The notes under the pieces: model-generated
The model's input: the letters and a program-made list of their open reading frames with translations, nothing else
Databases searched by the model: none
Told to the model about the DNA's origin: nothing
Translations under genes and position numbers: made by a program
In this document: in pieces, positions 36,149-63,632 of the stretch
Numbering within the stretch: position 1 is the first letter of the stretch
Layout: each line of letters begins with the position of its first letter
Source: a virus
Strand: one strand, 5' to 3'
Length of the DNA: 64,000 nt
IMG/VR virus record: IMGVR_UViG_3300033066_001156

Positions 36149-36580
36149 TCACAGGTCCAGGAATTGAAGCTCCTCGTAGCTGAGGGTGCAGTCCCCTTTG
36201 ATATAGGCTAGGTTGCGCTCAACCCTCTCAAGCCTGCTGATTGACTTTTTTTCTTTATCCATAGCGTCATTCTCAGCCTGTAAACTTGCTAGTACCCCGG
36301 CCCCGACAACTAGTTCCGATGAGTTCTTTCCCTCGAACTGGGGTTGGGATACGCTGTAATAGGTGGCGTTGTTGGAACGGGAGTCCTTAGCCTGCCTTAG
36401 CAAGTCCACCAGAATAGCATCCGTAATTTTGTTCTCTTGCCGAATTTTATCAATCCTGACCGCTCTCTCCGCCACTTTGGCTCGGAGCTTATCAATTTTC
36501 GCAAGAATGGCGTTTCCTAGCGCGTCACGCGGGATTATGTAGGTGAAGTCGCCAAAAAGATTGCTGGGAATGTGGTCCAT
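36149..36580 (-). CDS. Hypothetical protein
   Basis: 143-aa ORF, last gene of the minus-strand block; divergent from trpS. Confidence 0.4.
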   Translation of the reverse strand: MDHIPSNLFGDFTYIIPRDALGNAILAKIDKLRAKVAERAVRIDKIRQENKITDAILVDLLRQAKDSRSNNATYYSVSQPQFEGKNSSELVVGAGVLASLQAENDAMDKEKKSISRLERVERNLAYIKGDCTLSYEELQFLDL

Positions 36581-36641
36581 AAAATACCTCTGTGTGTGTT
36601 ACCACAGAATCACCCCACACTCTAAATCAGTAATCCCCACC

Positions 36642-47775: not shown

Positions 47776-47849
47776 TGCAGGATGGAGCAGTTTGGTAGCT
47801 CGTCAGGTTCATACCCTGAAGGTCGAGGGTTCAAATCCCTCTCCTGCGA
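47776..47849 (+). tRNA. tRNA-Met (anticodon CAU; could alternatively be read as Ile via lysidine)
   Basis: Cloverleaf folded by hand: acceptor tgcagga/tcctgcg (U1:G72), D-stem gagc/gctc, anticodon stem tcagg/cctga with loop ttCATac, variable aggtc, T-arm gaggg-TTCAAAT-ccctc, discriminator A; CCA not encoded. Confidence 0.7.
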
Positions 47850-47874
47850 CCGGGTTGATGGTAGTTTGACCTAA

Positions 47875-48588: not shown

Positions 48589-51500
48589 ATGACCGTCTCA
48601 AAAGATAAGTTGATCGATATCCTTACCCAGGGCTACTACATTTTTTTCCGGAATTCTTCCGGGTTAGCAAGATGTTTGCTCCCATATAAACATACTCCCG
48701 AAACGGCCGAGGCTCTGGTCACTCGATTCATGGCCGGAGAAAAGCCCGGAAAGGAGGGCATTTTCAGTTGGTTGCCCTTGTTTCTCTCAACCGAATCTGG
48801 CCCCTTACATCCCCAAAGCTCCTCTTTGTTGTCCGGATGGACATCCCGCCTTGGTGCTGTTGGTGGCCTCTATGCAATACCGGCTGTTTCTCACGACCCA
48901 TCTAATGAGAAATTCTCGGGGATCGGTCTGGGTTCTCCTGTATTGGATCTCCTGGCCTCGATTCAAGCTGCTTATGGGACTTTATCCGGTTCCACACTGG
49001 AAACTATATTTGAGGGGTTCGTGAGTCAAACCGATTTGCAACCGGCTTTGGTTGCTCGGTTGTTTGTTTCAATCGGTTTGGCTTCAAATGGCGACGTTTG
49101 TTCGATGGCCAGAGGTTGGGGGGGTCAAAAATCTCTTCCCGGGAAAGAGATCCTTGCCGCTCTTGAGGATCCAAGTTATAGCATCGCCATAAGGGCCGAA
49201 GGCTACCTAGCAGAACGCAGGCTTCGAAAACTCACCCAACCCAGATGGGTTATGAGTCCTCTTGGACTTCGATTTTGTTCTGGTCTACGGGAGGAAAGAG
49301 CAAAGGAAATACTGGTACTGTTGGGGTTGATTGGTGACTCCAATCTTATTACAAAAGACCGGATCCAATCCCTCTTGTCCGTGACAGTGTCTTCGATAGA
49401 TGAGCTTTCTATTCTCTACGCTCTTATCTCTGAGACTCCGGTTGAGGATAGGGCCAAAGCTTTTGGGGACTACAAGATATCCCCGGACACTTTCATCGGT
49501 TTAAGACAACCTATTGGTCAGGATTTGGATTATGCCCGTGACATATCAAAATCCGATACCCTGGTTCATCTGACCGCGTCCATTCATGCTACTCTTACTG
49601 AGGGTGTGATCGGCGCCCGTCATATATTAGAGCATTCGGACTTTGAATCGAAGAAGAGATTTGAAGATGTGTCCGAGGCCCTCTATTATCTGGCGTCCCG
49701 AAGTGGCCCGGAGATCGCTCAAGATTTGATGACCACGTTTGAAGATTATCTATTGTCAAATCTACAGCCGATGTCCCGAAGTGGCCTGGAGATCGCTCAA
49801 GATTTGATGGGGTCGAATAATCCAAAAGTAATCGCGGTAGGAAGAAAAATAATGGACAAGCTCCAAATTTTTGATTGGGATAAGTTTGCTTCAGACCTGA
49901 CATCTCCAAGGTGGTTGGGCCTCACTTCCGGGGAACTGAATTTCTGCGTTGGCCTTCGGCGGGAAGATGTTCTCAGGGCCCTTGAATTCTTGAAGACCCA
50001 AATTGAGGGTGGAAAAATACCCTCTTTGATTGCCAGGAAATGTTGCGATATCTTAGGGTCCTCAGAAGTCATATCCTATCTCCATGAGGAGGGCATGGTT
50101 GAATCCGGATGGCAGTTCTTTGGGAATGTTTCCGTTCGTATGACAGGGAGGGATACTCCCATTCCTAGGGACCAAGCCGATAAAGTGTCCTTTATGCTTC
50201 CGGTGCCTATCGAAGAAGACCGCGCCGTAGCCGTGGGGGATACACCGACTATAAAAAACTTCTCCGCTTCCGTCGCTGCCTTGATTAGACGTTGTCGGGC
50301 TTCTTCCACCATTCCTGATCTTCGCCCCCTTATGCGCAGGGGTAATATGTTTTCCCAGAGGGATGCCGAAACGTGCATCCTAGACACTATTGTGTCGCTT
50401 CACCGCAAAAACAAACTGACCCGCGATGTACTCGAAAGGATTGCAAGCTCTTTGCAAGATATGCCCCGTGTGCATGGGTTTCTGGATAACTACTTGCGGT
50501 CCTCTGCGAAACAGTCTCTCAGTACCAAAACAAAAGAAGTCCTTACTTCTACGAAATGGCTCTTGAAGTTTAAGGCCCATGGGCCTGGGTATCAGGAGAT
50601 TGTATGGGGTGGCCGTCTCTCCCCATTTCAAGCGGATCAGATTTTCATTCGTTTGAATCTATCTAGAGAAAAGATTCCTTCGTCGGAGATTCGTGCTTTC
50701 ATCGATGCCGAGATTGATAACCTCCCACGATCGGTCCTACACTCTATTCTTTTCTCCTTATCTTATCTTGGCAAGCTTGAAGATACCACATTCCTTCATG
50801 TCCCATCCAAAAAAATGGTTGATGCAGGAATTTCCACTATCTTTCAAAGATACGGTGGATTTCTACCCCTACCGGAACGAGGGGATATAACATTAGCTCA
50901 AGAGATCGAGTCCAAATACGGACATAAATGGGCTGGAATGGATGTTGATTTCACGGCCAGTTTTTTGTCCCTTGTTACCAGGGGTGGAATTATTCTTAGG
51001 GGTGAGGCATATAGCCCCCCTTATTTTGGGTTGGAGATCGCGAGTTGGTTTGTAAGAGCCGCTATGCAAATAGAGCATGGTGTGGAGTCATGCCTCCTCG
51101 CGCTTTATGAAATATGCAAAAGAACACCTAAGTTTTCTGAGACCTTGACCTTCTGGTCCGATCAAATAGCCACCCAAAAGGACGAATTCAACACCACACT
51201 CGGTCTTGTTTTCAAGGAAATAGCGAGTGGTTCCTTTAATCCCGATACGGATGTGACACAGGCTCAGAAAGACCTTTGGCTGTCTCTCCAATCTGATTCC
51301 GAGATTGCCTCAAGGGGTAATCAAAAGGGGGACACTTTGGGTACCTCGGAAAATCGAAAAGAACCTGTGTCTATCTTTGAGGGTGAGGAGAAAGTGGATG
51401 AAAAGATTGCGATATCACCCACGTGGGTGAACCTGTCTCAACTGGAGGCTGTGCTATCCGTGCCGGTTACGGCATTGATGAGAGAGGGGTTTGCAACTGC

Positions 51501-54500
51501 AAATCTTGCTCCCGAAACGGCCCTATCTGAAGCAAGGGCACTCCTCCCTCTATTTGCTGGGAAACACGGTCCCGTTTCCAATGCCGATTTGGCTTTGTGG
51601 TTCTCTCCTCCAAATGACGCGAAACTCATTGCTTTGCTTTGCATGGCTAGGGAAGGGTACCTACATCCAGATTGGATTTCGTATCTGATTCGGGAATATC
51701 CTTCCTCCTATGACCTTGCCTGTATTCAAGCAATTCTTCCAACACCTAAAGTTCTAGACCTTCCGGCTCTCCGTTCTCTTTTTCAAGAGAACGGGCTGAG
51801 TTTCAGTCACGAGTCTTTTGGGGTTAACCTCACCGTCTACCTGCGAATGATGCAAGCGGGGGGTAAGGAGCCTAATCTTGTCTCAGCTCTTAGACCTGGG
51901 AATACGGATGAGTGGCAGGTAAAGACATTTACAGTTGTGATGTGTGAGATGATTGAGCAGGGGGGTCTGGATCCGGCTCTTCTAAATAAGCCACTGTTTG
52001 AGTTGGAGTCCTTGGCCTCTACAGAGACCGTTCAGAATGCCGTGAGGAAAATCAAGTCCACAATTGAAAAGTCCGCAAAAACTGCCCAATCCGATCGGCC
52101 ACATCCTCATGTGGAGGCCGCGGAGGCTTTTGCGGAAGCCGGGAGAGTTGCAACGAAAACTAGAAAGGCATTTCTGTCAACCTATGGTCTATTTTCCGTT
52201 CGGGATCCCAACTACGATCATTGTTCTACAGAAGTATCAATTACTTTTGCGGATAAAACTTTGGCTGCTGCGGCTGTACCGGGCGATCTTGGGACGCATG
52301 ATTTCTTTCAGGCCATGGCTGCTTATATCCGGCTTTGTGGTGAGGAAGGTAAAACACCTAATTTCCGGTATCTTCTCGCTAATTCCTCTCTCTCCTTAAG
52401 AGACAAGGTCAAAGGATTTTCGCGTATTCTATCGAAATCCGTTGATGAGAAGAAAATCCATGCAGATGCAGTTTTGCGTGTTCGAGAAGACATCCACAAC
52501 GCTAACCTCTTTCAACAAGAGATGCTTTGGCTTGAGGAAGACCTCCTTACCTCTTCGAAAACCAAAGCGGGCGCCTTTGGGCAAAGACGATCCAAGTTAG
52601 AGCAATCTCTTTTGGGTGGGGTTTCCTACATTTCCAAAGAAGGGTCTAAGGTTACTCGGTTGAGGGCCCTCCATACCCATACTGCGGTATCCATTCTTCG
52701 GAACCTATCCGAGGCGGGCCACTCGACTGCAAGTTCTATTCGAAAAGCCTTATGGCAAGAAGTTCTGAATGGTGCTGGGGCGGATGATATTTTTCGTGCC
52801 TTGCTTGCGTTAGTGAAAACAGGTTCTTTTACCCTGGATGACCTCAGAGATCCCTGGACCGGCAGTCTGGTTCGCGGTCTATCACCGAAATTGGAACAAC
52901 TCTTATGGTGTGAGTCGGATGGTGATTCCACAGAAGCTTATGTGGTTGCTGAGGGTATCCTAGACACCTACGTTGGGGATCGCAGAGTAAGAGTCTTCGA
53001 CCGTTTGGTAGATACACTCAAATTCACCTCCACGTTCCATTCCCCAAGCTATTTTCGTGATCTTCTCGTAGAGTTTGAGCGGGAGGGTCTTTTTCCTGGG
53101 TTGGTGGAGAAAATTCTGGATGCCATAGCTAGAGAGAAATATCTTTCTACGGAGGCCCTCCGTTCTTACGACTTTTTTACCGATTTTTCACACGAAAGGA
53201 GGGAGCACCTTAAGAAATACGTTGCTGAGTTAGCTACACGAGAGGATAAGATCAGATATTCCCCACGTAGACTGGCATCTCTTCGCCACTGGCTCAAAGG
53301 TAGCCATTTTTGGATTAAAAGAGATGGGGCCGCAGAATATGCCCTAGTTCCATCGGAGCTTTCGGATAAGCAAATAGACGCAATCCTAAAGTCGTTGCCG
53401 CTACTTGACGAAAAGTTCTTGCCTCCAAGCAATCACGACGGTTTTAAGAACTTTGTTCTTCAATTACATGAGTTGAATCTTCCCGTGGGACAGGTGCAAA
53501 ATCTTTTTGTCAATCTGTTTGCCGCAGGGGTTTGTTTCCCAAGTGATATCCCGACAGCAGTGTCTTTCACTGTAGACCAAGCTTTAAGCTCAATTGGTGG
53601 GTGGTTCACACCCTATCAAAACCTAAAAGATTTGGCTGTTGTACTGACCGACCCCTATCTTTCCTCAAACGGATTCGTGGCGACTCTAGCCTCTCATTTG
53701 AAAATGGTAGGTTCCGCTCCATCTTCCCTTGCTCACGTCATTCGTGTTGCGTTCAACACTCCTGATTCCGTTTCGGGTATGACCGCTGGAGAAAAGGCCA
53801 AATGTATTAAGACTCTGGTGAATCGGGGCGTGGATGCAAACTGGTACACCAACCAAACTCTTTTGGAAGCCGTTTCTATAGCCGAAACTCAGTCCCCAGA
53901 AATTAATGGTTGGGTGGAAGCCGACTCTTTCATGCGTGGGAAAAAAGATGACATGGTGCCTATGGCGGAATCACTCTCGGATCCACATAAAGAAAAGCAC
54001 GAAGCTAAAAATTATGGTGGGGAGAAAGCAAACAAAGATCTGACGGAAGCACTCACGAAGTCGGATTGGCTTTTGACCGACTCCGGTGTCTTTCATTTGG
54101 ATGGGATGTCCGAGGGTAAAGCTAAGGAAATTGCCGAGGCCCTTATTGATTCCACCAGTATGACATCTGCTGGTGAAGATGCCATACAAGCTTTGACCGA
54201 AGTTAGTGGTGGAAACCAAACGGTTGCTAAGAAGATCATATCGTCGCTGCTGGACTGGGCCGACTCACCATCGGAAAGGGTCACACAAAATGCTTTCCAG
54301 TCCACGACGATAGAGAAGCTTCCAAAACCAGGACCCAAAGAATGGGATCTATGTGGGGTTTTGGGACGATACAATCCGGAGATTCAGGGTCATGTTGCCG
54401 CTTATATACTCAAATGTGGGCGCGAAGGTAGGGCTCCTGATTTTCGTCGGCTTTTAACCTCTGGTACCGGAACTGCTATTTCTCACGGCTGGGTTCTTGT

Positions 54501-56070
54501 TTTGACGGAAAGAGCTCTTGAGCTTGGGTACCTGGATAGGGTTAAACTTCGGGAAGCTTCGGAGCAATTGAAGAATTCTCAGTCAATTCACCTTTTTTCA
54601 TTTGGCTCCGATCTTGAGAACTACCTAAATGAACTGGAGGGTAAGGAGACTTTGAAAGAGAGCCTCAACGTGGCTGAAGAACTAACAAGCCCTGGCATGG
54701 CCGCCCTTCAGATGATGTCTATGGGACCCTCAAAAGTATTACTTCGTCTTGCTGAAGAGGTAACATCTGAACGGAAAACCGAACAGTGGAGGGCTCAGGT
54801 AATAGATCATTTGATTTCAAGAGATGATTTCCAATCCTATCTGGAACTTTATGTTGCTCGTGCCCTAACCTATATGGTGGGGAAAAAGAATAACGAAACT
54901 CTTAAGCAAGAAATGGCTCAAGCTGCGGCAGAGTCGATTACTTTTAGCTTTGGTTGCACCCAAGCGGATTTGGGCTCTCCGGCACCAATTTCCCACATTC
55001 CGGATTCTGCCTTGCTGTACGAGGAAATGTACCGAAGGGTGCATCATGCGTATGAACGAAAGGTACAAAATAGAGCCGTTCTCCCACCTGGAGAGTCCTA
55101 CGCCAGGGTTATTGCTAGTGAGGAAAAGAGAATTTCCGAAGCTTTTGGTGTGGATGATGCCCTAAAACAGGTGGCAGCTATGAAAGAGGCCCTTAACCTC
55201 ACTCAGAAGAGGGTATGGGATAAGAAAGCTGCCATGGAACCTCAGGTTGCTACGAAAGTTGCCGTGCCCATGTTGGATCCAGTTAAAATTGCGGCGGGGA
55301 CTGCGAGTGTTGTCGGATCCATGGCAATCACTGATTCAACTGACGAAGTAAAAGGTACAAAGGAAACTCAGAGGATGAAATCAGATTCAAATGTGGCCGC
55401 GGCAAAGGTCGGCACAAAGGCTTCCCAGAAGCCACTGAAAGGAAAGGCAATGGAAGAGGAAGAAGAAGATCTGTTCGAGGATGACGTAGAAGAGGATAAA
55501 GGTCCCGATTTGGGTCAGATTCTCGTTAAGACACTCAAAGACGACGGGAAGACCATCGCTCTCAGAACGGGGGTTAAGCATACCCGGGAGCAGCTAACCG
55601 CGTTGGTGACAAACTTCATCAACAGCAAATCTATTCGTAGGTTTGAGGGTGAATCGGATGAGGCTTACACGGCACGGGCCGAAGCTCAACGAAGTGGCGT
55701 GTCAGCTTTCCTTCTCTCCGATGTTGGGCAGCAGCTTATCACCTATCTCCTTGGTCTTTCGTGGCCTGTGCTGGAAAGCAACATTGAGGATGGTAAGGTT
55801 AGGAAATACGGCGGGATGGTTGCAAGGGAGATCCGTGCGCAGAGTGGTTCTGACCTTCTCGATGGATTTCTGGAAGAGGTTGTCTTCCCCCTCCTAGCGG
55901 TGATTACCTCTGAAGCCAAAAACTTCGGGAAGATGGTTCTTGCTCCGGCAAAGCGGGTTCGCGTTTCAGGTCTCAATGAATCCCCTGCAGACGAGAAAGC
56001 TCGACTCATGGAGCGACTTGCGGAACTTGAGCGGGACGCTAACGTTGTGCCCATGGCTAAAAGCCGGTAG
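48589..56070 (+). CDS. Giant hypothetical protein (2493 aa), predominantly alpha-helical with internal repeats; possible virion/injected protein
   Basis: Uninterrupted 7.5-kb ORF; repeated blocks (SRSGPEIAQDLM x2; L.FC.GLR.E...+.L x2; CGEEGKTPNFRYLL / CGREGRAPDFRRLL); acidic C-terminal stretch EEEEEDLFEDDVEED. Confidence 0.8.
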   Translation: MTVSKDKLIDILTQGYYIFFRNSSGLARCLLPYKHTPETAEALVTRFMAGEKPGKEGIFSWLPLFLSTESGPLHPQSSSLLSGWTSRLGAVGGLYAIPAVSHDPSNEKFSGIGLGSPVLDLLASIQAAYGTLSGSTLETIFEGFVSQTDLQPALVARLFVSIGLASNGDVCSMARGWGGQKSLPGKEILAALEDPSYSIAIRAEGYLAERRLRKLTQPRWVMSPLGLRFCSGLREERAKEILVLLGLIGDSNLITKDRIQSLLSVTVSSIDELSILYALISETPVEDRAKAFGDYKISPDTFIGLRQPIGQDLDYARDISKSDTLVHLTASIHATLTEGVIGARHILEHSDFESKKRFEDVSEALYYLASRSGPEIAQDLMTTFEDYLLSNLQPMSRSGLEIAQDLMGSNNPKVIAVGRKIMDKLQIFDWDKFASDLTSPRWLGLTSGELNFCVGLRREDVLRALEFLKTQIEGGKIPSLIARKCCDILGSSEVISYLHEEGMVESGWQFFGNVSVRMTGRDTPIPRDQADKVSFMLPVPIEEDRAVAVGDTPTIKNFSASVAALIRRCRASSTIPDLRPLMRRGNMFSQRDAETCILDTIVSLHRKNKLTRDVLERIASSLQDMPRVHGFLDNYLRSSAKQSLSTKTKEVLTSTKWLLKFKAHGPGYQEIVWGGRLSPFQADQIFIRLNLSREKIPSSEIRAFIDAEIDNLPRSVLHSILFSLSYLGKLEDTTFLHVPSKKMVDAGISTIFQRYGGFLPLPERGDITLAQEIESKYGHKWAGMDVDFTASFLSLVTRGGIILRGEAYSPPYFGLEIASWFVRAAMQIEHGVESCLLALYEICKRTPKFSETLTFWSDQIATQKDEFNTTLGLVFKEIASGSFNPDTDVTQAQKDLWLSLQSDSEIASRGNQKGDTLGTSENRKEPVSIFEGEEKVDEKIAISPTWVNLSQLEAVLSVPVTALMREGFATANLAPETALSEARALLPLFAGKHGPVSNADLALWFSPPNDAKLIALLCMAREGYLHPDWISYLIREYPSSYDLACIQAILPTPKVLDLPALRSLFQENGLSFSHESFGVNLTVYLRMMQAGGKEPNLVSALRPGNTDEWQVKTFTVVMCEMIEQGGLDPALLNKPLFELESLASTETVQNAVRKIKSTIEKSAKTAQSDRPHPHVEAAEAFAEAGRVATKTRKAFLSTYGLFSVRDPNYDHCSTEVSITFADKTLAAAAVPGDLGTHDFFQAMAAYIRLCGEEGKTPNFRYLLANSSLSLRDKVKGFSRILSKSVDEKKIHADAVLRVREDIHNANLFQQEMLWLEEDLLTSSKTKAGAFGQRRSKLEQSLLGGVSYISKEGSKVTRLRALHTHTAVSILRNLSEAGHSTASSIRKALWQEVLNGAGADDIFRALLALVKTGSFTLDDLRDPWTGSLVRGLSPKLEQLLWCESDGDSTEAYVVAEGILDTYVGDRRVRVFDRLVDTLKFTSTFHSPSYFRDLLVEFEREGLFPGLVEKILDAIAREKYLSTEALRSYDFFTDFSHERREHLKKYVAELATREDKIRYSPRRLASLRHWLKGSHFWIKRDGAAEYALVPSELSDKQIDAILKSLPLLDEKFLPPSNHDGFKNFVLQLHELNLPVGQVQNLFVNLFAAGVCFPSDIPTAVSFTVDQALSSIGGWFTPYQNLKDLAVVLTDPYLSSNGFVATLASHLKMVGSAPSSLAHVIRVAFNTPDSVSGMTAGEKAKCIKTLVNRGVDANWYTNQTLLEAVSIAETQSPEINGWVEADSFMRGKKDDMVPMAESLSDPHKEKHEAKNYGGEKANKDLTEALTKSDWLLTDSGVFHLDGMSEGKAKEIAEALIDSTSMTSAGEDAIQALTEVSGGNQTVAKKIISSLLDWADSPSERVTQNAFQSTTIEKLPKPGPKEWDLCGVLGRYNPEIQGHVAAYILKCGREGRAPDFRRLLTSGTGTAISHGWVLVLTERALELGYLDRVKLREASEQLKNSQSIHLFSFGSDLENYLNELEGKETLKESLNVAEELTSPGMAALQMMSMGPSKVLLRLAEEVTSERKTEQWRAQVIDHLISRDDFQSYLELYVARALTYMVGKKNNETLKQEMAQAAAESITFSFGCTQADLGSPAPISHIPDSALLYEEMYRRVHHAYERKVQNRAVLPPGESYARVIASEEKRISEAFGVDDALKQVAAMKEALNLTQKRVWDKKAAMEPQVATKVAVPMLDPVKIAAGTASVVGSMAITDSTDEVKGTKETQRMKSDSNVAAAKVGTKASQKPLKGKAMEEEEEDLFEDDVEEDKGPDLGQILVKTLKDDGKTIALRTGVKHTREQLTALVTNFINSKSIRRFEGESDEAYTARAEAQRSGVSAFLLSDVGQQLITYLLGLSWPVLESNIEDGKVRKYGGMVAREIRAQSGSDLLDGFLEEVVFPLLAVITSEAKNFGKMVLAPAKRVRVSGLNESPADEKARLMERLAELERDANVVPMAKSR
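49694..49809 (+). repeat. Near-perfect 38-bp direct repeat (2 copies, 78-bp period) inside the giant ORF
   Basis: gcgtcccgaagtggcccggagatcgctcaagatttgatg at 49694-49731 versus atgtcccgaagtggcctggagatcgctcaagatttgatg at 49772-49809; in-frame duplication of SRSG(P/L)EIAQDLM. Confidence 0.8.
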
Positions 56071-56351: not shown

Positions 56352-56861
56352 ATGCAAGACAAACTCATTGAGTCCCTGGAGAGGGTTCTTGTTGACAGAG
56401 ACAGATCCATTCAAGAGCTTAGGGGGGTTGTTGAATCTTTACAAGCCCTGCTGGAAAAATCAAAATCTGCTTGGTGCCTGCCCAGGATTGGACAGGACAA
56501 CCCGAATCTACCACTTCCTCGATTGGAGATGGAGTGGGTAGACGAGACTCAAAAACCATCACCCCCCTGGACCTGTTATATGGTTGAATACAGATTGGTT
56601 CAGGGTTGTTTATCTGGTAAAGTTCTCTTTTCCCCTTTGGGGGTAACCAGAGTCAAGGGTGGGGTGCACGAATGTCCGTGGGCCTTAGACAATGGCAGAG
56701 TGGATTTGCCTTTTGGGGACGGCCCGAGCGCTTGTTTTGACTCTGGCCATTTGAATCTCCCACTCTATCTTATCACCCCATCTAGCCCACCAATAGAAGT
56801 AAATGCTGAGGACTATGGGCCCTATCAGTATCGTAAGGGTCAACAGCAACGCAGAGGCTAA
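56352..56861 (+). CDS. Hypothetical protein
   Basis: 169-aa ORF. Confidence 0.4.
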   Translation: MQDKLIESLERVLVDRDRSIQELRGVVESLQALLEKSKSAWCLPRIGQDNPNLPLPRLEMEWVDETQKPSPPWTCYMVEYRLVQGCLSGKVLFSPLGVTRVKGGVHECPWALDNGRVDLPFGDGPSACFDSGHLNLPLYLITPSSPPIEVNAEDYGPYQYRKGQQQRRG

Positions 56862-56862
56862 A

Positions 56863-57738
56863 ATGGGATATAGGCACATTCCTACCACAAGTCACCGGGA
56901 TTCTCTTCCGATTTTTCATTTTGATAAAGTCTATTGTCTGGAGAAAATTGATGGGACTTCGGCGCACGTCTCGTGGTCAAATGGTTCCTTGACCTTCTCT
57001 CCCGGCGGGGCTTCCGCGGAAGCCCTTGAGAAGCTGTTTGATAAGGACAAGCTCACCGAATACTTCACTTCTTTGGGCCACCCCAAGGTCACCATTTATG
57101 GTGAAGCTTATGGTGGCAAGGTTCAGAAGATGGGATCTCGCTATGGGTCCGCACTCCGATTTGTTGCTTTTGACGTTAAAGTTGGGGAAGAGTGGCTAAA
57201 TGTCTCGGATGCTGCTATTTTCGTGGAGAAAGCGGGTCTTGAGTTTGTACCCTACAAAATCATCCCTATGACGCGAGAAGCCATTGATGCAGAGAGGGAT
57301 GCACCATCCGTTCAGGCTGAGAGGAATGGGATGGGGACCAATCAGGATAGGGAGGGTGTTGTCCTTCGCCCTCTCCTGGAGTTCTATTACCAGGGGGATG
57401 TGATCCGGGTCAAACACCGCCGTCCGGAGAATCGTGAGACATTTTCAGTTCAGCCTTTAGCCACAGAGGCTCAGGAAGTTCTCACGGGCGCTAAGGCTAT
57501 TGCCCAAGAATGGGTCACACCCGCTAGGTTGAATCACGTTATGGATCATCTGATCGCTACCCTGGGTCGTGAATTGGAGATGAGGGATACCCCCCAAGTC
57601 CTTGCCGCTATGCAAGAAGACGTGTACCGGGAAGCGGCCGGTGTCGTAATTGAATCTAAAGAAGCAACCCACGAGATCCGTACGAAAACACGTCTGCTAT
57701 TCCACACACATCTTCAATCAAAGGTACCATGCATCTAG
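56863..57738 (+). CDS. ATP-dependent RNA ligase (Rnl2-like nucleotidyltransferase)
   Basis: Motif I EKIDGTSAH (KxDG), TIYGEAYGGKVQ, EGVVLRPL (motif IV-like), VIRVKHRR (motif V-like K-x-K); start MGYRH with upstream GAGG. Confidence 0.65.
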   Translation: MGYRHIPTTSHRDSLPIFHFDKVYCLEKIDGTSAHVSWSNGSLTFSPGGASAEALEKLFDKDKLTEYFTSLGHPKVTIYGEAYGGKVQKMGSRYGSALRFVAFDVKVGEEWLNVSDAAIFVEKAGLEFVPYKIIPMTREAIDAERDAPSVQAERNGMGTNQDREGVVLRPLLEFYYQGDVIRVKHRRPENRETFSVQPLATEAQEVLTGAKAIAQEWVTPARLNHVMDHLIATLGRELEMRDTPQVLAAMQEDVYREAAGVVIESKEATHEIRTKTRLLFHTHLQSKVPCI

Positions 57739-58160
57739 CTACAAACTCTGGAAAAAAGAATCGGCTTCCTGGTGAAGCCCAGGAGGCTCGGAAAATTCGT
57801 CAGGCCAGAGCCGCTCGCCATAATCGCATTCTTGAAGCCGTCAAGAGGGTCGAGCAAGAAGGGGACCAATGGTTGCTTTTGGATGGTGTGAACATCAAAA
57901 TCACTTTGGATCCAAACGTTTACATCGGTAGCTATTGCTATATGGCAATTGTTCGAACCAAGAAATTCGGTCTTCAGATTGCGCAAGTGACGACTAAAGA
58001 CAGAGGGTATGCAACTTTGGTTCGCATGAAGAGGCACCGCATGATTGGCATTCGCGATGGGTTTGAGGTGTGCTACATCCGGCAAGTCGATACGGCCGGA
58101 GAAGACAGATGGGATCAGTGGTATGCCCTAGCAAAGAGAGATGTGGCTCAATCAGACTAG
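57729..58160 (+). CDS. Hypothetical protein
   Basis: 143-aa basic ORF. Confidence 0.4.
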   Translation: MHLATNSGKKNRLPGEAQEARKIRQARAARHNRILEAVKRVEQEGDQWLLLDGVNIKITLDPNVYIGSYCYMAIVRTKKFGLQIAQVTTKDRGYATLVRMKRHRMIGIRDGFEVCYIRQVDTAGEDRWDQWYALAKRDVAQSD

Positions 58161-59245: not shown

Positions 59246-59968
59246 ATGGCAGTAATCCCACAGATGAATGTTCTTGACCTTTTCGAGCCATCTACCCTCC
59301 CAGAGAATGACTTTTGGTCCACCCTTGAGTCCTATCGGGCGATAAAGGCTAGGATCCGTAGTCTTGAGTCCGAAGGGGAAGATAAGTTTCAAAAGGGAAA
59401 AATGGGCAAAAGGAAGAAGGATAAATCTCCCGAGGAGGTTGAGGCCCTTCGATCGTCTCTGCTGAATGAATACAATGCGATTTTGGATCCGCTTCGCGAG
59501 CAAGAAAAGTTGCTCAAGGCCAAATTAAACGAGTTAGCACTTACCACCCCTTTCCGAGAGCCTCGTGAAACGTGGTGTTTGTGGAAGGTTCATTCCACCT
59601 ACGATCATTTGACCGTTGGTTTCGGTGCGACTGCCTATGCACAGAGTTCTGCCGAACTTCGGGAGCAGGAAGCAAAAGCTTTGGGGCTAGAGACCAGAAT
59701 TGATCGGGAGTCTCAGAAAGCTCAATTTCGGACCTTCTACTCCGTCGCAGATGAATACGTGACCTTCAAGGTCATGGTTAAGGTTCACGGTGAAGATGAC
59801 ATTGCTCTCCTGGATCGCAAACCCGGAATGTCTCTCCGTGAGTGGATGAAAGCCTGTTGGTCTCGCGGAAAAAACCCTAGGGTCTATAACCCATACCTTC
59901 CTCCTGGTTTGGAAGAGAAACTGGGGATAGATTGTTTTGGTCGGGATCTTGTACCCGGTAACCCATGA
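59246..59968 (+). CDS. Hypothetical protein
   Basis: 240-aa ORF. Confidence 0.45.
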   Translation: MAVIPQMNVLDLFEPSTLPENDFWSTLESYRAIKARIRSLESEGEDKFQKGKMGKRKKDKSPEEVEALRSSLLNEYNAILDPLREQEKLLKAKLNELALTTPFREPRETWCLWKVHSTYDHLTVGFGATAYAQSSAELREQEAKALGLETRIDRESQKAQFRTFYSVADEYVTFKVMVKVHGEDDIALLDRKPGMSLREWMKACWSRGKNPRVYNPYLPPGLEEKLGIDCFGRDLVPGNP

Positions 59969-60148
59969 TATCCTATCGGATCTTACGGCCCATCCGGGGA
60001 GGGTGTGGGTGGGAGGCGGATCCACCCACCTTACCTTCTATTACATCTAGGAATTTTGAACATCCTGGTAGATCCGGGTACCTCCTGGGGGATTACGGAT
60101 TTAGGGCTCAACAACATGGATGGTTTCATTTGAACAAGGAATAACTGC

Positions 60149-60406
60149 ATGTACCAACGAATGAAAGGTGAGAGTTGGATAGCTCTCGATTATGAGCTCT
60201 TGAATACAACTTCTCACTGGAACCCTTCCGTTGACGATGAGGCCGTGGGGTTTAGAGTAACCCAGACGAATTGGTATGGTGTAAGGAAAAGAAATGGGTC
60301 AATCAACATTTCTGGACAGACTGTTGAACACCAGGGTTGTAAATGTTCCAAACCGTGGGTGGGTCATGTTCGCGAGTCTCCCCCAAGGTCAAGCGGCCTT
60401 GATTGA
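60149..60406 (+). CDS. FGE-C-terminal-like mini-protein, dispersed copy
   Basis: MKGESWIALDYELLNTTSHWNPSVDDEAVGFRVTQTNWYG, the same motif as the 42611..43722 array. Confidence 0.35.
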   Translation: MYQRMKGESWIALDYELLNTTSHWNPSVDDEAVGFRVTQTNWYGVRKRNGSINISGQTVEHQGCKCSKPWVGHVRESPPRSSGLD

Positions 60407-60528
60407 GGACGAGTGTGGAGTCCCTCTTCTACTTGTTCGAACGTGGGGACTTGAGGGTGGGGACCCTCAAGCCATTGCTACCGAAGTTGGGTTTGAGGTT
60501 CCAGTATCAGTAGACAAGGGGTCATGGG

Positions 60529-61296
60529 GTGGTTGTGAATACACAGAGTTCCGATTTGGACAGAACCCATCTAGCTAACCCCCTACTTCATTTGGGGCTG
60601 GCTGTAACCATTGCCAAAGAGCAGTGGGAGAAGTATCCCAATAGATACTGTACATACGAAGATTATGTACAGACCGCGTATGTGGGGCTTCTGGACGCCT
60701 GCAAGCGATATGACTCTTCGATTGGTACTTTCTCCTCTTTTGCCTATCCAACCATTCTTGGCCATATTAGGAGAATGAGAGCCTCACGACGTATTGTCCG
60801 GTTTGGTGGGGAGAGGGTGAACCTTGCAATAGCCCGAGGGCTGAAAAGTGGAGGGATGACCTACACTCCTGATTTCGCCGCGGAAAGAATGAGTAATATC
60901 CCCCATGCCCCTGAACTCAAATCCGAAGAAGAAGTGCACAGGGCTGTTGGTTTCGTTCGAGGCAAAGACATCTCTATAGATGATATTCACACTTCTGGCA
61001 ATCTCCTCCCCGAAGACATCCTGCCTGACGACACTTATCCCGAGAACATCCCCTACGATTCTATGGTAGGGAGAAATTGGACTCGTGTTCTGGAGATATA
61101 TCGGGAGAAAGTCGAACAGGAGGGTGGTCGATTGAAGCGGCTGGTCCTTGGGAAGCGCCTATTCGTTCTGGACCCAGAAGATCAATCAACCCTTGCCGAC
61201 ATTGGTCGGGAGGTTGGTGTTTCTCGTGAGCGAGTTCGTCAGGTAGAGGCCGTCATGCTACGTGAGATTCGTCAGCTCGTAAAGGAACTAAGATGA
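60529..61296 (+). CDS. RNA polymerase sigma factor (sigma-70 family)
   Basis: Region 2 YVQTAYVGLLDACKRYDSSIGTFSSFAYPTILGHIRR; region 4 HTH TLADIGREVGVSRERVRQVEAVMLREIR. Confidence 0.75.
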   Translation: MVVNTQSSDLDRTHLANPLLHLGLAVTIAKEQWEKYPNRYCTYEDYVQTAYVGLLDACKRYDSSIGTFSSFAYPTILGHIRRMRASRRIVRFGGERVNLAIARGLKSGGMTYTPDFAAERMSNIPHAPELKSEEEVHRAVGFVRGKDISIDDIHTSGNLLPEDILPDDTYPENIPYDSMVGRNWTRVLEIYREKVEQEGGRLKRLVLGKRLFVLDPEDQSTLADIGREVGVSRERVRQVEAVMLREIRQLVKELR

Positions 61297-61961
61297 AAAT
61301 CCGACCCAACCTGAAACCCCCCACCATCATGTCCAACCCACCTGACCTAGATGCTCCGCCGGAGTTCTATGACCCGGCACACACAAACCCCCCGGGGGTT
61401 CAAGATGGGCCTTTCATCAAACCCACGGAACCAGCCCGACCAAAGAGCTACATTCTCTCCAACCCTCCACCATTGGTGGAAACTTACGAGGCCCCAACAC
61501 CAAACAAAGAGATCGAGCGAAAATTCCTTCTCAAAGAGGGGGTTGTCTTTGCGGACAGGGTCGAACGGTCCTACAAGATCATTCAGGGATACCTGTCAAT
61601 GGGTCCCGTTGTGAGGGTTCGTGTCCAGGATGGTATTGGATACCTCACCATCAAGGGCAGTGGTCTCCTCACTCGCGCGGAGTACGAGTATCGCATCCCG
61701 ACCAACGAAGCCGAGGAACTCCTGGAGTTGTGTGTGGGATCCAGGATCGTCAAGACCCGACACATCGTTCTTGCAAAAGAGGGTAACTTGACAACTCGGT
61801 GGGAGGTGGACGAATTCCATAGCCCCATCAAACTCTGGATGGCCGAGGTTGAGCTACCTTCTGAGGATGCCCCCTTCGTCAAGCCTTCCTGGGTAGGGGA
61901 AGAGGTGACTCACGACATCAGGTACACCAACGCTGCGATATCCACGGTGCCCGCAAAATGA
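61293..61961 (+). CDS. CYTH-domain (triphosphate tunnel metalloenzyme) protein with Pro-rich N-terminal extension
   Basis: EIERKFLLKEG (ExExK signature) followed by beta-strand-rich region with conserved R/E/K positions (YEYRIP, RWEVDEF, EVEL). Confidence 0.6.
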   Translation: MKIRPNLKPPTIMSNPPDLDAPPEFYDPAHTNPPGVQDGPFIKPTEPARPKSYILSNPPPLVETYEAPTPNKEIERKFLLKEGVVFADRVERSYKIIQGYLSMGPVVRVRVQDGIGYLTIKGSGLLTRAEYEYRIPTNEAEELLELCVGSRIVKTRHIVLAKEGNLTTRWEVDEFHSPIKLWMAEVELPSEDAPFVKPSWVGEEVTHDIRYTNAAISTVPAK

Positions 61962-62422
61962 TCCCTATTGAGTATGTTGTGGGCGACGCTACGGATCCCC
62001 AGGGGGACGGAGTCAAGCTCATCATCCACATCGTCAACAATCGCGGTGGGTGGGGACGCGGGTTTGTGAATGCGATCTCCAAACGGTGGGATGGACCCGA
62101 GCGTGTCTACCGTGCGGACCACAAGCATGGACACCTCAACCTGGGTACCCTCACCGAGGTTCTGGTCGCCTACAACACTTTTGTCATCAACATGGTGGCC
62201 CAAGACGGATACTCCACACCTGGGAGCCCTGCCATCCGATACGATGCATTGGCCGATTGCCTGGAGAGGGTTGGGGAGGTCGCTGTGGGGCTGAAAGCTT
62301 CGGTTCATGCCCCCCGTATTGGCACGGGATTAGCTGGTGGTAAGTGGGAAATAATAGAACCTATCTTGATCCATCAACTGTCGGAGAAAAATGTAAAAGT
62401 GACCATCTATGATCTTCCTTAG
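61958..62422 (+). CDS. Macro-domain protein (ADP-ribose binding/hydrolase fold)
   Basis: VVGDATDPQGDGVKLIIHIVNNRGGWGRGFVNAI (GD.T...DAIVNAAN..L..GGGV..AI pattern) and IGTGLAGGKWE. Confidence 0.6.
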   Translation: MIPIEYVVGDATDPQGDGVKLIIHIVNNRGGWGRGFVNAISKRWDGPERVYRADHKHGHLNLGTLTEVLVAYNTFVINMVAQDGYSTPGSPAIRYDALADCLERVGEVAVGLKASVHAPRIGTGLAGGKWEIIEPILIHQLSEKNVKVTIYDLP

Positions 62423-62437
62423 CGCCGTAACATAGTC

Positions 62438-62854
62438 ATGGCAAAAACACTCAAGGTTGAATTGGAGAAGGAACTTTCTATCCTCCGCCAGCGGGTCACC
62501 GAAGATGAGGGTGAGCTTCCACTCCCCCGGTTGGAGGTTGAATTCACCCACCTAAATGCCAATACCATGGAGTCGGTTGTTCGGATTGTCACTGGCCACA
62601 TTCGAGGGGATATCTTCTCCAGCGTAGTGCTTCACCGTACAGCATATGGCACCCCTACCTCTCCTATTTCTGAGGGCATCTTTGTTCCCAGCCACGCACC
62701 ACATTTTTTTAGTTGCGACGTAGCTTTTCTTTCGGCTCATTTGAATCTCCCTGTGTTCGTCCAGGGAGTGAAGGGTACTCGGATTCGATGGGAGCAAACT
62801 GCTTCTCACCCACACCAAATCTCCTTGGGGGCGAAAGCTCGGAGGGGTCTTTGA
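62438..62854 (+). CDS. Hypothetical protein
   Basis: 138-aa ORF. Confidence 0.35.
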   Translation: MAKTLKVELEKELSILRQRVTEDEGELPLPRLEVEFTHLNANTMESVVRIVTGHIRGDIFSSVVLHRTAYGTPTSPISEGIFVPSHAPHFFSCDVAFLSAHLNLPVFVQGVKGTRIRWEQTASHPHQISLGAKARRGL

Positions 62855-62904
62855 AAAGTCCTTATTACCTAGAGCGCATTCTAGCTCACCCCAGGGCTAA
62901 GGAT

Positions 62905-63387
62905 ATGCTCAAACTGTTTCCTAATTCTAAGGAGGTGACTGAGACTTTTGGGGCCTGGGAAGCCGTTCAGAAACATTTGCCACACCTTGACCGTGCCAAT
63001 CCGGATATTGTGGCGATTGTTATTGGTGATGGTCATTCCCCCAGAACGGGAGCCCTGATTGCTATGTCTACCTCCTGGGAAGTCCACTCAATCGATCCTC
63101 TTCTCCGTCCAAAACACGTGGGGAAAATCAAACGTTTGGCCACGCACCGGGAGTGTTTCCCATCACCATCGGTGATGCAGTTTGATGGGAAAAAGGTGGT
63201 GGTTGTGGCGGTACATTCCCATGCTGGGTTCAACCCCATTTTGGACATTGAGTGTACGAGCTTGGACGCCGTAGCTATTCCTTGTTGCGTCCCCCATAAG
63301 CTACCTGGATTGACCCCCCAAGTCTATGCGGACACGGCGATATGGTCCCCTGAGCGTAATGTTCACATCTGGAAAGGGATCAAGTGA
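62905..63387 (+). CDS. Hypothetical protein
   Basis: ORF from MLKLFPNSK...; the upstream portion of the long ORF overlaps the previous gene. Confidence 0.35.
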   Translation: MLKLFPNSKEVTETFGAWEAVQKHLPHLDRANPDIVAIVIGDGHSPRTGALIAMSTSWEVHSIDPLLRPKHVGKIKRLATHRECFPSPSVMQFDGKKVVVVAVHSHAGFNPILDIECTSLDAVAIPCCVPHKLPGLTPQVYADTAIWSPERNVHIWKGIK

Positions 63388-63632
63388 GATCACTTGATTG
63401 CAGTTGCGGTAGGACCATTGTTGAACGTGGTTGGAAACTCCATTATCGGAGGTGTACTCACGCTCTCATTGCTTATAGTGATTTGAACCCATCAATCAAT
63501 TTGGCGGATGACCGCTTAGAAAAGAACCTCCCTCCAGGGTGTATCTGCCGAACGGGCAAAAGTGAGATTCTTCCGTGCATTTCATGCCGTCAATGGGCTA
63601 AAGAAAATGATAGAAAAATCCGACATCCCTAA
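63384..63632 (+). CDS. Small Cys-rich (zinc-binding) protein
   Basis: CSCG...C...H and CICRTG...CISC in an 82-aa ORF. Confidence 0.4.
   Translation: MRSLDCSCGRTIVERGWKLHYRRCTHALIAYSDLNPSINLADDRLEKNLPPGCICRTGKSEILPCISCRQWAKENDRKIRHP

What the first reader, a model, noticed from the sequence alone, without database searches (positions are those of the whole stretch)
61293..62422. CYTH-Macro gene pair immediately downstream of the phage sigma factor: candidate nucleotide-signal-degrading (anti-defence) module
A CYTH (triphosphate-tunnel) protein with the EIERKF ExExK signature is followed, with a 4-nt overlap, by a macro-domain protein (GD.T...H.VNN.GGWG..). CYTH enzymes act on triphosphorylated or cyclic nucleotides. 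Macro domains bind or hydrolyse ADP-ribose derivatives, for example reversing protein/DNA ADP-ribosylation or processing ADPR-derived signals. As an operon they could dismantle host immune second messengers (Thoeris gcADPR or CBASS/pycsar-like signals) or reverse host ART-based defence such as DarT. The window also contains a candidate phage ART (4358..5530), so the macro domain could alternatively be an immunity partner.
Basis: partly seen in the sequence, partly recalled or inferred. Interest (0 to 1): 0.62.

Follow-up and report, generated by a model that had tools for sequence, protein, structure and literature searches.

The report
Phage triphosphatase and ADP-ribose-removing gene pair
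A large uncultured phage carries, right after its own sigma factor, a triphosphate-cleaving enzyme gene and a gene for an enzyme that most likely strips ADP-ribose off DNA to defeat a host toxin (DarT); the second belongs to a phage counter-defence family published in 2025-2026, and nothing shows that the two genes work together.

Summary
The ORFs 61293..61961 (CYTH, EIERKF motif) and 61958..62422 (macro domain) exist. They overlap by 4 nt (ATGA) and follow a sigma-70-family gene, which overlaps the CYTH gene the same way.

The macro protein is a Gln-type ALC1-like macrodomain. Its closest solved relatives are BT1257 (E 4e-42) and SCO6735 (E 6e-39), a hydrolase that removes thymine-linked ADP-ribose from DNA and neutralises DarT. 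It falls in the same PHROG as T4 Tk.4, recently named AdfM, an anti-DarTG2 factor. The residues needed for catalysis are conserved.

The CYTH protein is a NeuTTM-type triphosphatase (Foldseek E 2e-10 to NE1496). All tunnel residues are intact. It also carries a disordered, proline-rich 72-residue N-terminal extension specific to this lineage.

The proposed "operon dismantling second messengers" is not supported:
- No CYTH-macro adjacency was found in 320 other loci (viral, metagenomic, bacterial).
- The pair occurs only in this phage clade (window lineage plus L259/L260).
- Natural relatives have lost CYTH but kept macro, or replaced macro.

Most likely these are two independent accessory enzymes. 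The macro gene is a new member of a known counter-defence kind. The biological role of the CYTH gene is unknown.

The parts
60529..61296 (+). Phage sigma-70-family factor. It is the first gene of the translationally coupled trio and is context, not part of the enzyme pair.
   Evidence: Pfam Sigma70_r2 and Sigma70_r4; phrog_351 RNA polymerase sigma factor 4.4e-21; TIGR02937 above its cutoff. Its stop overlaps the CYTH start (ATGA). It is deleted together with CYTH in the relatives L006-L009.
61293..61508 (+). N-terminal 72-residue proline-rich extension of the CYTH protein, predicted disordered. It has two SNPP motifs and a GPF(I/V)(K/R)PT.PARP motif.
   Evidence: No domain hit. AF2 pLDDT is 53-60 with no secondary structure. 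It is conserved with in-frame indels in the lineage relatives P0003 and P0005; dN/dS is about 0.26. It is absent from all other CYTH homologs, which are about 155 aa long.
61509..61961 (+). CYTH / triphosphate-tunnel-metalloenzyme domain of the NeuTTM (inorganic triphosphatase) type.
   Evidence: Pfam CYTH 34.6 bits, above the gathering score. phmmer against NE1496 (2fbl/3typ) gives E 1.5e-17. Foldseek top hits are NE1496, E 2e-10, TM 0.73-0.77. In domain numbering, E4 E6 K8 R39 R41 K52 R59 E61 E63 K85 R87 E102 D104 E116 E118 are invariant. The NeuTTM dyad Tyr28/Lys52 corresponds to Y100/K121 (PMC3440374).
61958..62422 (+). Stand-alone macrodomain protein (154 aa). It belongs to the ALC1-like class, Gln-type SCO6735/BT1257/T4 Tk.4 (AdfM) subfamily, and is a predicted ADP-ribosyl glycohydrolase.
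   Evidence: PDB matches: BT1257 4e-42, SCO6735 6e-39, ALC1 macro 1e-11. phrog_335 3.5e-25, the PHROG of T4 Tk.4. 27% identity and E 1e-11 to T4 Tk.4. PADLOC DarG 1.8e-9. H24, N27, G33, G35, Q82, P119-R120-x-G122 are invariant, and G124-L125 and G127-G128 nearly so.
4358..5530 (+). R-S-ExE ADP-ribosyltransferase. It is context only, lies 57 kb from the macro gene, and is not shown to be linked to it.

Best explanation
These are two separate accessory enzymes of a large uncultured phage. They are co-transcribed and translationally coupled behind the phage sigma-factor gene, but they are not an obligate functional pair.

(1) The macro protein is an active ADP-ribosyl glycohydrolase of the Gln-type ALC1-like subfamily (SCO6735, BT1257, T4 Tk.4/AdfM). 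It binds the ADP-ribose moiety with its Gly-rich loops. Using the Gln82-positioned substrate and a backbone-activated water, as proposed for SCO6735, it cleaves ADP-ribose from thymine in single-stranded phage DNA, and possibly from uracil in RNA or from Glu/Asp in proteins. This undoes the replication block imposed by a host DarT2-type toxin.

(2) The CYTH protein is a Mg2+-dependent triphosphatase of the NeuTTM/CthTTM type. It hydrolyses the terminal phosphoanhydride of inorganic triphosphate or of a nucleoside triphosphate, and so acts in phage nucleotide or phosphate housekeeping. Its disordered proline-rich N-terminal tail probably tethers it to a partner.

Shown here: folds, family placement, intact catalytic residues, gene arrangement, and distribution. 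Inferred: substrates, the DarT target, and the independence of the two functions.
For: Macro:
- It is 50-55% similar over its full length to the solved BT1257 and SCO6735 (E 4e-42 and 6e-39).
- SCO6735 removes dT-linked ADPr from ssDNA, rescues cells from DarT, and needs Gln85 (PMC9411070). It also removes U-ADPr from RNA, but not 2'-OH or 5'-phosphate ADPr.
- The window protein keeps H24, N27, R34 (for K34), Q82 (= Gln85) and the PRIGTGLAGG loop. Q82 is invariant in 19 family members, including T4 Tk.4.
- T4 Tk.4 is in the same phrog_335 and is 27% identical, E 1e-11. It is required for T4 growth on a DarTG2 host.
- Phage macro anti-DarT2 factors have also been shown biochemically for PhiKZ.
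- The macro gene remains under purifying selection in the lineage that lost CYTH (L010 against L006, dN/dS 0.12).

CYTH:
- Pfam score above the gathering threshold.
- The best sequence and fold matches are the specific inorganic triphosphatase NE1496.
- All tunnel residues and the Tyr/Lys dyad are conserved.

Independence:
- 0 of 80 IMG/VR CYTH loci have a macro gene within 6 kb.
- 0 of 80 IMG/VR and 0 of 80 JGI macro loci have a CYTH gene nearby.
- 0 of 80 bacterial CYTH loci have the macro.
- Three huge-phage contigs carry both genes, 17-90 kb apart.
- A natural deletion removes sigma and CYTH but keeps macro in at least 15 contigs.
- A 97%-identical relative has CYTH broken after residue 106 and macro replaced by an unknown ORF plus an HNH-RNA ligase.
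Against: - The pair is translationally coupled (ATGA).
- The adjacency survives in a second, much more diverged sub-lineage with different flanks: L259/L260, CYTH 46% and macro 56% identical, 17-nt spacer. Linkage may therefore be selected.
- Viral CYTH genes lie near NAD-salvage genes (NAPRTase within 6 kb in 22 of 80 loci, from three CYTH clades). This hints that phage CYTH could touch NAD/ADP-ribose metabolism and so connect to a macro enzyme.
- The host is unknown, so it is not known whether DarT2 systems are relevant.
- The SCO6735 DNA-positioning residue Lys89 is Ser here.
- No biochemical data exist for this protein or for any phage CYTH.
Confidence: 0.55

Rival explanations
1. The two genes form a true two-enzyme module. 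CYTH and macro would act on the same nucleotide-derived molecule or pathway. Examples: degrading an ADPR-derived or triphosphate-bearing immune signal, or processing ADP-ribose released by the macro enzyme within NAD+ turnover.
For: - The 4-nt overlap suggests coupled translation.
- The adjacency is kept in two diverged sub-lineages with different flanking genes (window lineage; L259/L260).
- In other phages CYTH often sits beside NAPRTase or nicotinamidase, an NAD theme.
- Triphosphate-bearing immune signals exist (dITP in Kongming).
Against: - No adjacency in 320 independent loci, and no fusion among 120 + 120 listed homologs.
- Both sub-lineages share a third syntenic gene, so the adjacency is probably one inherited event.
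- Natural variants keep one gene without the other.
- NeuTTM-type enzymes cleave triphosphates, not cyclic phosphodiesters or ADPR glycosidic bonds.
- No CYTH is mentioned in the NAD-reconstitution literature I checked.
Confidence: 0.13
2. The macro enzyme serves the phage's own ADP-ribosylation programme. It would reverse or limit modification made by the phage R-S-ExE ART (4358..5530), either as an immunity or timing partner or by removing off-target modification of phage components.
For: - The window does encode a bona fide ART.
- In Streptomyces phages the homologous macro gene sits directly after a gene annotated as ART or Sir2.
- SCO6735 also removes Glu/Asp-linked protein ADPr.
Against: - The ART is 57 kb away and is not co-located in any relative examined.
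- R-S-ExE (C3/VIP2-like) ARTs typically target Arg, Asn or Gln (established knowledge, not tested here). ALC1-like macrodomains are not known to reverse these linkages.
- T4 has three such ARTs plus Tk.4, yet the Tk.4 phenotype found was anti-DarTG2.
Confidence: 0.1
3. The macro enzyme acts on RNA-linked or small-molecule ADP-ribose derivatives in an RNA-repair or translation-protection context. Examples are ADPR-1''-phosphate from Tpt1-type healing, or U-ADPr on RNA made by a host toxin. It would work alongside the phage RNA ligase, CCA-adding enzyme and tRNA genes.
For: - The old T4 annotation 'A1pp phosphatase' for phrog_335.
- A weak N-terminal match to yeast Poa1p (E 5.5e-4).
- An RNA ligase lies 3.5 kb upstream.
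- In L005 the macro slot holds an HNH-RNA ligase.
- SCO6735 hydrolyses U-ADPr on ssRNA.
Against: - No Tpt1/KptA or 2H phosphoesterase was found among about 70 window ORFs scanned.
- Similarity to Poa1p is far weaker than to SCO6735 and BT1257.
- SCO6735 is inactive on 5'-phosphate and 2'-OH RNA ADPr.
Confidence: 0.1

Closest known systems
SCO6735 (Streptomyces coelicolor) and BT1257 (Bacteroides thetaiotaomicron) macrodomains, ALC1-like class (PDB 5E3B, 2FG1, 2AFC)
   Same: Same length and a single-domain architecture. Alignable end to end (E 6e-39 and 4e-42). The same GGWG.GF and PRIG.GLAGG ADP-ribose loops. His24 and Asn27 are kept, and the essential Gln (Q85 in SCO6735, Q82 here) stands in place of the Lys of DarG and TARG1.
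   Different: Encoded by a phage, not a bacterium. Lys34 is Arg and Lys89 is Ser, so the DNA-clamping surface may differ. Activity is untested.
AdfM, anti-DarT factor macro (T4 Tk.4; PhiKZ gp104)
   Same: A stand-alone phage macrodomain of about 155 aa in an accessory gene region. Same PHROG (335) as T4 Tk.4 and the same Gln-type active site. The expected function is removal of DarT2-made ADP-ribose from phage DNA.
   Different: Only 27% identical to Tk.4. PhiKZ AdfM is DarG-like with a catalytic Lys (K78), unlike this protein. Neither T4 nor PhiKZ places the gene next to a CYTH gene or a sigma factor. The phenotype is untested here.
DarG antitoxin macrodomain (DarTG2)
   Same: Same ALC1-like fold class. 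PADLOC DarG gives 1.8e-9 and NCBIfam DarG 3.2e-5 over the macro part.
   Different: Far below the NCBIfam cutoff (23 against 250 bits). It has no C-terminal DarT-binding domain and no adjacent DarT, and the catalytic Lys80 is replaced by Gln.
NeuTTM (NE1496) and CthTTM inorganic triphosphatases, CYTH superfamily
   Same: 37% identity over the whole domain, the best fold match, an identical set of tunnel Glu/Arg/Lys residues, and the Tyr28/Lys52 dyad.
   Different: It carries a 72-residue disordered proline-rich N-terminal extension and is phage-encoded. The substrate is untested. No biological role is established even for NeuTTM itself.
SirTM/ART-macro operons (for example the Streptomyces phage Faust gp156-gp157 pair)
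   Same: The same macro subfamily, placed immediately downstream of and overlapping a partner gene.
   Different: The partner there is an NAD-consuming transferase that writes the mark. Here the partner is a triphosphatase with no known link to ADP-ribosylation.

Membership tests
Macrodomain, ALC1-like class, SCO6735/BT1257 (Gln-type) subfamily | Full-length sequence similarity to solved members | tested here: met
   phmmer against BT1257 4e-42, SCO6735 6e-39, ALC1 macro 1.4e-11
Macrodomain, ALC1-like class, SCO6735/BT1257 (Gln-type) subfamily | Pfam Macro (PF01661) gathering score | tested here: not met
   17.7 bits against a cutoff of 22. Most family members also lack a precomputed PF01661 hit, so the model under-covers this subfamily.
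Macrodomain, ALC1-like class, SCO6735/BT1257 (Gln-type) subfamily | Gly-rich ADP-ribose and phosphate-binding loops | tested here: met
   G30-G31-W32-G33-R34-G35-F36 and P119-R120-I-G122-T-G124-L-A-G127-G128 are conserved or invariant in alignment A2 and align to the crystal-structure sequences.
Macrodomain, ALC1-like class, SCO6735/BT1257 (Gln-type) subfamily | Essential Gln at the position of the DarG/TARG1 catalytic Lys (SCO6735 Gln85), plus His24 and Asn27 | tested here: met
   Q82, H24 and N27 are invariant in 19 sequences. Residue roles are taken from PMC9411070.
Macrodomain, ALC1-like class, SCO6735/BT1257 (Gln-type) subfamily | DNA-positioning lysines Lys34 and Lys89 of SCO6735 | tested here: inconclusive
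   Position 34 is Arg (conservative). The Lys89 equivalent is Ser86. T4 Tk.4 also lacks Lys34.
AdfM (phage anti-DarT2 macro factor) | Homology to an experimentally validated AdfM | tested here: met
   Same phrog_335 as T4 Tk.4 (90 and 223 bits). BLASTP gives 27% identity, E 1e-11.
AdfM (phage anti-DarT2 macro factor) | Removes DarT2-made dT-ADPr and protects the phage on DarTG2 hosts | not testable with these tools
   Needs biochemistry or plaque assays. The host is unknown.
DarG antitoxin | NCBIfam equivalog score, C-terminal DarT-binding domain, adjacent darT, catalytic Lys80 | tested here: not met
   23.4 bits against a cutoff of 250. The protein is 154 aa and is a macro domain only. The upstream gene is CYTH, not DarT. 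Gln replaces Lys.
CYTH / triphosphate tunnel metalloenzyme | Pfam CYTH gathering score and the ExExK motif | tested here: met
   34.6 bits against 23.2. E73-x-E75-x-K77.
CYTH / triphosphate tunnel metalloenzyme | Complete set of acidic metal-binding and basic triphosphate-binding tunnel residues | tested here: met
   In domain numbering, E4 E6 K8 R39 R41 K52 R59 E61 E63 K85 R87 E102 D104 E116 E118 are invariant.
NeuTTM-type specific inorganic triphosphatase | Closest fold and sequence relative is NE1496; Tyr28/Lys52 dyad present | tested here: met
   phmmer 1.5e-17. Foldseek E 2e-10, TM 0.73-0.77, 37% identity. Y100 and K121 are conserved (dyad from PMC3440374).
NeuTTM-type specific inorganic triphosphatase | PPPi hydrolysis with high specificity | not testable with these tools
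   Needs an enzyme assay.
Class IV (CyaB-like) adenylyl cyclase | Closest structural relatives are AC-IV enzymes | tested here: not met
   AC-IV structures (3n0z, 2fjt) match only at E about 1e-2, 16-17% identity, ranked after all the triphosphatases.
Conserved CYTH-macro two-gene module | Recurrent adjacency or fusion in unrelated genomes | tested here: not met
   0/80, 0/80, 0/80 and 0/80 loci. No fusion among the listed homologs. The pair is present only in the window clade.
Poa1p-type ADP-ribose-1''-phosphate phosphatase (tRNA-splicing by-product pathway) | Similarity to Poa1p and presence of a Tpt1/KptA partner | tested here: inconclusive
   Only residues 3-64 match Poa1p, at E 5.5e-4. 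No Tpt1 was found among the scanned ORFs, but small ORFs were not all scanned.

The most novel reading that the evidence does not exclude
In this clade of large phages the NeuTTM-like triphosphatase has been recruited, through its proline-rich tail and tight coupling to the macro gene, into a two-step counter-defence or NAD/ADP-ribose salvage route. For example, it might destroy a triphosphate-bearing immune nucleotide (of the dITP type) or PPPi released by host dNTPases, while the macro enzyme strips ADP-ribose from DNA. That would be the first biological role assigned to a phage CYTH enzyme. The recurrent CYTH-NAPRTase neighbourhood in other phages would then reflect the same NAD-centred function.
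Probability: 0.12. Interest if true: 0.7.

Novelty: new member of a known kind. Interest (0 to 1): 0.3.

Why it matters
If the macro protein is an AdfM-type enzyme, it extends the newly described macrodomain counter-defence against DarTG2 from T4-like and PhiKZ-like phages to an uncultured lineage related to huge phages. It would also show that the Gln-type (SCO6735-like) catalytic variant is widespread in phages: 331 INPHARED records carry homologs. The CYTH gene is one of many phage triphosphate-tunnel enzymes with no assigned role. Three leads for working out what phage CYTH enzymes do came out of this analysis: the clade-restricted linkage to a macro gene, the lineage-specific disordered tail, and the neighbourhood with NAD-salvage genes in other phages. 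None of this overturns current understanding.

Tried and rejected
- **DNA similarity to known phages.** No match in INPHARED with blastn, so there is no annotated close relative to lean on.
- **Conserved module.** I looked for the partner gene by tblastn and by family HMMs in 80 IMG/VR CYTH loci, 80 IMG/VR macro loci, 80 JGI metagenome macro loci and 80 GTDB bacterial CYTH loci. The only hit was one marginal match (E 0.034).
- **Fusion proteins.** None of the listed CYTH or macro homologs carries the other domain.
- **Synteny with the related huge phage LR745208** (DnaB 71% identical). Only the CYTH gene matches; there is no sigma or macro gene nearby.
- **The genes downstream of macro** (62438..62854, 62713..63387, 63384..63632). 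No hit in Pfam, PHROGs, PADLOC or PDB.
- **Promoter and terminator scan of 58-64 kb.** Counts do not exceed the shuffled controls, so the operon boundaries remain undefined.
- **Host identification.** Cluster names gave nothing.
- **Literature on phage CYTH function.** Only a generic suggestion of NTP degradation in jumbo phages. CYTH is not mentioned in the NARP or Kongming papers.
- **Adenylyl-cyclase reading of the CYTH.** Rejected, because the best fold and sequence matches are triphosphatases.
- **DarG membership.** Rejected.
Full report
**1. What is in the sequence**

The region holds three same-strand ORFs joined by ATGA start/stop overlaps:
- 60529..61296, 255 aa
- 61293..61961, 222 aa
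- 61958..62422, 154 aa

The first is a sigma-70-family factor: Pfam regions 2 and 4, phrog_351 at 4.4e-21, TIGR02937 above its cutoff. The second carries a CYTH domain at residues 71-204 (34.6 bits, gathering score 23.2). The third hits Pfam Macro only below threshold (17.7 against 22). It is still unmistakably a macrodomain, as shown by:
- phmmer matches to solved structures: BT1257 E 4e-42, SCO6735 E 6e-39, human ALC1/CHD1L macro domain E 1e-11
- phrog_335 at 3.5e-25
- PADLOC DarG at 1.8e-9

**2. The genome around it**

The window has no nucleotide match in INPHARED. Its gene content is that of a large phage:
- an SNF2 helicase and a family-A DNA polymerase, each interrupted by a LAGLIDADG intein
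- a DnaB helicase and a CCA-adding/poly(A) polymerase-like enzyme
- a class-I (Trp/Tyr) tRNA synthetase, an NT5C nucleotidase and an RNA ligase
- thymidine kinase, Dam methylase, a cREC domain protein and a GIY-YIG nuclease
- one tRNA-Met gene

Its DnaB is 71% identical to that of the 485-kb uncultured phage LR745208. The window therefore belongs to a lineage related to huge phages. The host is unknown.

**3. The macro protein**

Its two closest solved relatives define the Gln-type branch of the ALC1-like macrodomain class. The following has been shown for SCO6735:
- It rescues E. coli and Streptomyces from DarT.
- It also removes Glu/Asp-linked protein mono-ADP-ribose.
- It depends absolutely on Gln85, which sits where DarG and TARG1 have their catalytic lysine. 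His24, Asn27, Lys34 and Lys89 contribute (PMC9411070).
- It also removes uracil-linked ADP-ribose from RNA. It is inactive on 2'-OH-linked and 5'-phosphate-linked RNA ADP-ribose (PMC13036486 and PMC11833690).

The window protein has His24, Asn27, Arg34 and Gln82 (the Gln85 equivalent). Both Gly-rich loops are intact (GGWGRGF and PRIGTGLAGG). Only the Lys89 equivalent is changed, to Ser. In a 19-member alignment that includes T4 Tk.4, the residues G9, D10, H24, N27, G33, G35, N78, Q82, P119, R120 and G122 are invariant.

T4 Tk.4 belongs to the same phrog_335 (223 bits) and aligns to the window protein at 27% identity, E 1e-11. A 2025 preprint found tk.4 to be the single T4 gene needed on a DarTG2 host and named it adfM. 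A 2026 Cell Reports paper showed biochemically that the PhiKZ macrodomain AdfM removes DarT2-made ADP-ribose from DNA.

Homologs of the window protein occur in 331 INPHARED records, from Klebsiella, Escherichia, Streptomyces and other phages.

The best-supported mechanism is therefore enzymatic reversal of base-linked ADP-ribosylation. Most probably this is thymine-ADPr written on phage ssDNA by a DarT2-type host toxin. The step "is an active ALC1-like ADP-ribosyl hydrolase" rests on direct sequence evidence. The step "target is DarT2" is inference from homologs.

**4. The CYTH protein**

Sequence (E 1.5e-17) and predicted fold both place it next to NE1496 (NeuTTM), the specific inorganic triphosphatase of Nitrosomonas europaea. 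The AF2 model has a mean pLDDT of 80.7, with most blocks of the domain above 90. Foldseek gives E 2e-10, TM 0.73-0.77 and 37% identity. Class IV adenylyl cyclases and thiamine triphosphatases are only distant matches, at E from about 1e-3 to 1e-2.

All acidic and basic tunnel residues are invariant. The Tyr28/Lys52 dyad proposed for NeuTTM (PMC3440374) corresponds to Y100 and K121. Its chemistry is hydrolysis of a triphosphate chain. It is not cleavage of cyclic phosphodiesters or of ADP-ribose linkages.

Residues 1-72 are a proline-rich extension predicted to be disordered. Among all the homologs retrieved, it occurs only in this phage lineage. It evolves faster than the domain but is still constrained (dN/dS 0.26 against 0.07). 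I found no published function for any phage CYTH. A survey of jumbo phages only suggests degradation of nucleotides.

**5. Are the two genes a module?**

Evidence for:
- The 4-nt overlap.
- Conservation of sigma-CYTH-macro in the relatives at 66-94% protein identity (L001, L010-L013). L003/L004 keep CYTH-macro, but their contigs are cut just upstream.
- A second, much more diverged sub-lineage, L259/L260. There a 155-aa CYTH without the N-terminal tail (46% identical) lies 17 nt upstream of a macro gene (56% identical). The neighbours differ (PadR, a metallophosphoesterase, no sigma). L259 does share a third syntenic gene with the window (the homolog of 57729..58160). The adjacency is therefore most simply a single inherited event.

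Evidence against:
- None of 80 IMG/VR CYTH loci has a macro gene within 6 kb, by tblastn or by a family HMM.
- None of 80 IMG/VR macro loci and none of 80 JGI metagenome macro loci has a CYTH gene nearby.
- None of 80 bacterial CYTH loci has the macro.
- Of the five nearest outgroup macro genes examined, only P0124 (L259/L260) has the CYTH neighbour.
- Three huge-phage contigs carry both genes, but 17-90 kb apart.
- Nature has already done the separation experiment. In L006-L009 (at least 15 contigs from several samples) a deletion fuses the upstream 240-aa ORF to the last 35 codons of CYTH. This removes sigma and CYTH but leaves an intact macro gene under purifying selection.
- In L005, which is 97% identical over the first 106 CYTH codons, the rest of CYTH and the whole macro gene are replaced by unrelated sequence, a 161-aa ORF and an HNH-RNA ligase.

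I conclude that the pair is not a general, obligate module. A clade-specific functional link cannot be excluded.

**6. Other readings**

RNA repair. An Appr-1''-phosphatase reading has little support. The Poa1p match is weak and partial, and no Tpt1 was found.

Second-messenger degradation (Thoeris, CBASS, Pycsar). This has no specific support from either family placement.

**7. A lead on phage CYTH**

In the IMG/VR CYTH loci, a nicotinate phosphoribosyltransferase gene lies within 6 kb in 22 of 80 loci. These come from three CYTH clades that are 39-47% identical to each other. In one clade the gene is directly adjacent, and seven loci there also have a nicotinamidase-like gene upstream. Other neighbours are ThyX, UDG, PolA and a metallophosphoesterase. 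This places phage CYTH in neighbourhoods for nucleotide and NAD metabolism. It is the only hint that could connect CYTH to ADP-ribose biology, and I did not pursue it further.

**8. Verdict**

The macro gene is a new member of a known counter-defence family described in 2025-2026. The CYTH gene is an intact triphosphatase of unknown biological role. Overall interest is modest.

Noticed in passing
L006:4189-5004 (also L007-L009), compared with window 59246..61961: A natural deletion variant seen in at least 15 metagenomic contigs. The homolog of the window's 240-aa ORF is fused in frame to the last 35 codons of CYTH. This removes the phage sigma factor and CYTH but keeps macro, so the sigma factor is dispensable in this lineage.
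   Followed up: yes
L005:6001-8203, compared with window 61293..62422: A relative 97% identical up to CYTH residue 106 then switches to unrelated sequence. The macro gene is replaced by a 161-aa unknown ORF and an HNH-RNA ligase fusion. The recombination breakpoint lies inside the CYTH gene.
   Followed up: partly
L019-L049 and L081 (IMG/VR CYTH loci): A NAPRTase gene lies within 6 kb of the viral CYTH gene in 22 of 80 loci, from three CYTH clades. It is directly adjacent in one clade, and seven loci there also have a nicotinamidase-like gene upstream. This is a possible link between phage CYTH enzymes and NAD salvage, and I found no report of it.
   Followed up: partly
[not shown]
   Followed up: yes
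window 5547..8594 and 14353..19413 (+): Both the SNF2 helicase and the family-A DNA polymerase are interrupted by inteins with LAGLIDADG homing-endonuclease domains.
   Followed up: no
window 61293..61508 (+): The CYTH protein has a 72-residue disordered proline-rich N-terminal extension with repeated SNPP motifs. It is unique to this lineage among more than 2,500 homologs. It may be a docking or localisation tail.
   Followed up: partly
window 28412..28870 (-); also L014:6402-6629 and L257:7694-8200: A cREC_REC (cyclic-phosphate-processing receiver) domain protein is encoded in the window, and a second one lies among the ORFs of alignment A6. cREC genes also lie 1-4 kb from the macro gene in two outgroup phage contigs.
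   Followed up: no
window 42099..42644 (+): An NT5C-family 5'-deoxyribonucleotidase. T5 Dmp, a deoxyribonucleotide 5'-monophosphatase, was recently reported to counter the dITP-based Kongming defence. I did not check whether this gene is related to it.
   Followed up: no
window 48589..56070 (+): A 2,493-aa ORF with no Pfam or PHROG match.
   Followed up: no
window 9371..10912 (+): The DnaB-like helicase is 71% identical (over 58% of its length) to one in the 485-kb uncultured huge phage LR745208. That phage also has a CYTH gene, but with no macro or sigma gene next to it.
   Followed up: partly
L346 (Streptomyces phage Faust 86995..88151): In Streptomyces BE-cluster-like phages the homologous macro gene directly follows, with a 1-nt overlap, a gene annotated as ART. 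In sister phages the same neighbour is annotated as Sir2. This looks like a writer-eraser pair.
   Followed up: partly
window 24558..25766, 36543..37616, 47776..47851, 56803..57738: A set of translation and RNA-repair genes: a CCA-adding/poly(A) polymerase-like enzyme, a class-I Trp/Tyr-tRNA synthetase, tRNA-Met and an RNA ligase.
   Followed up: no
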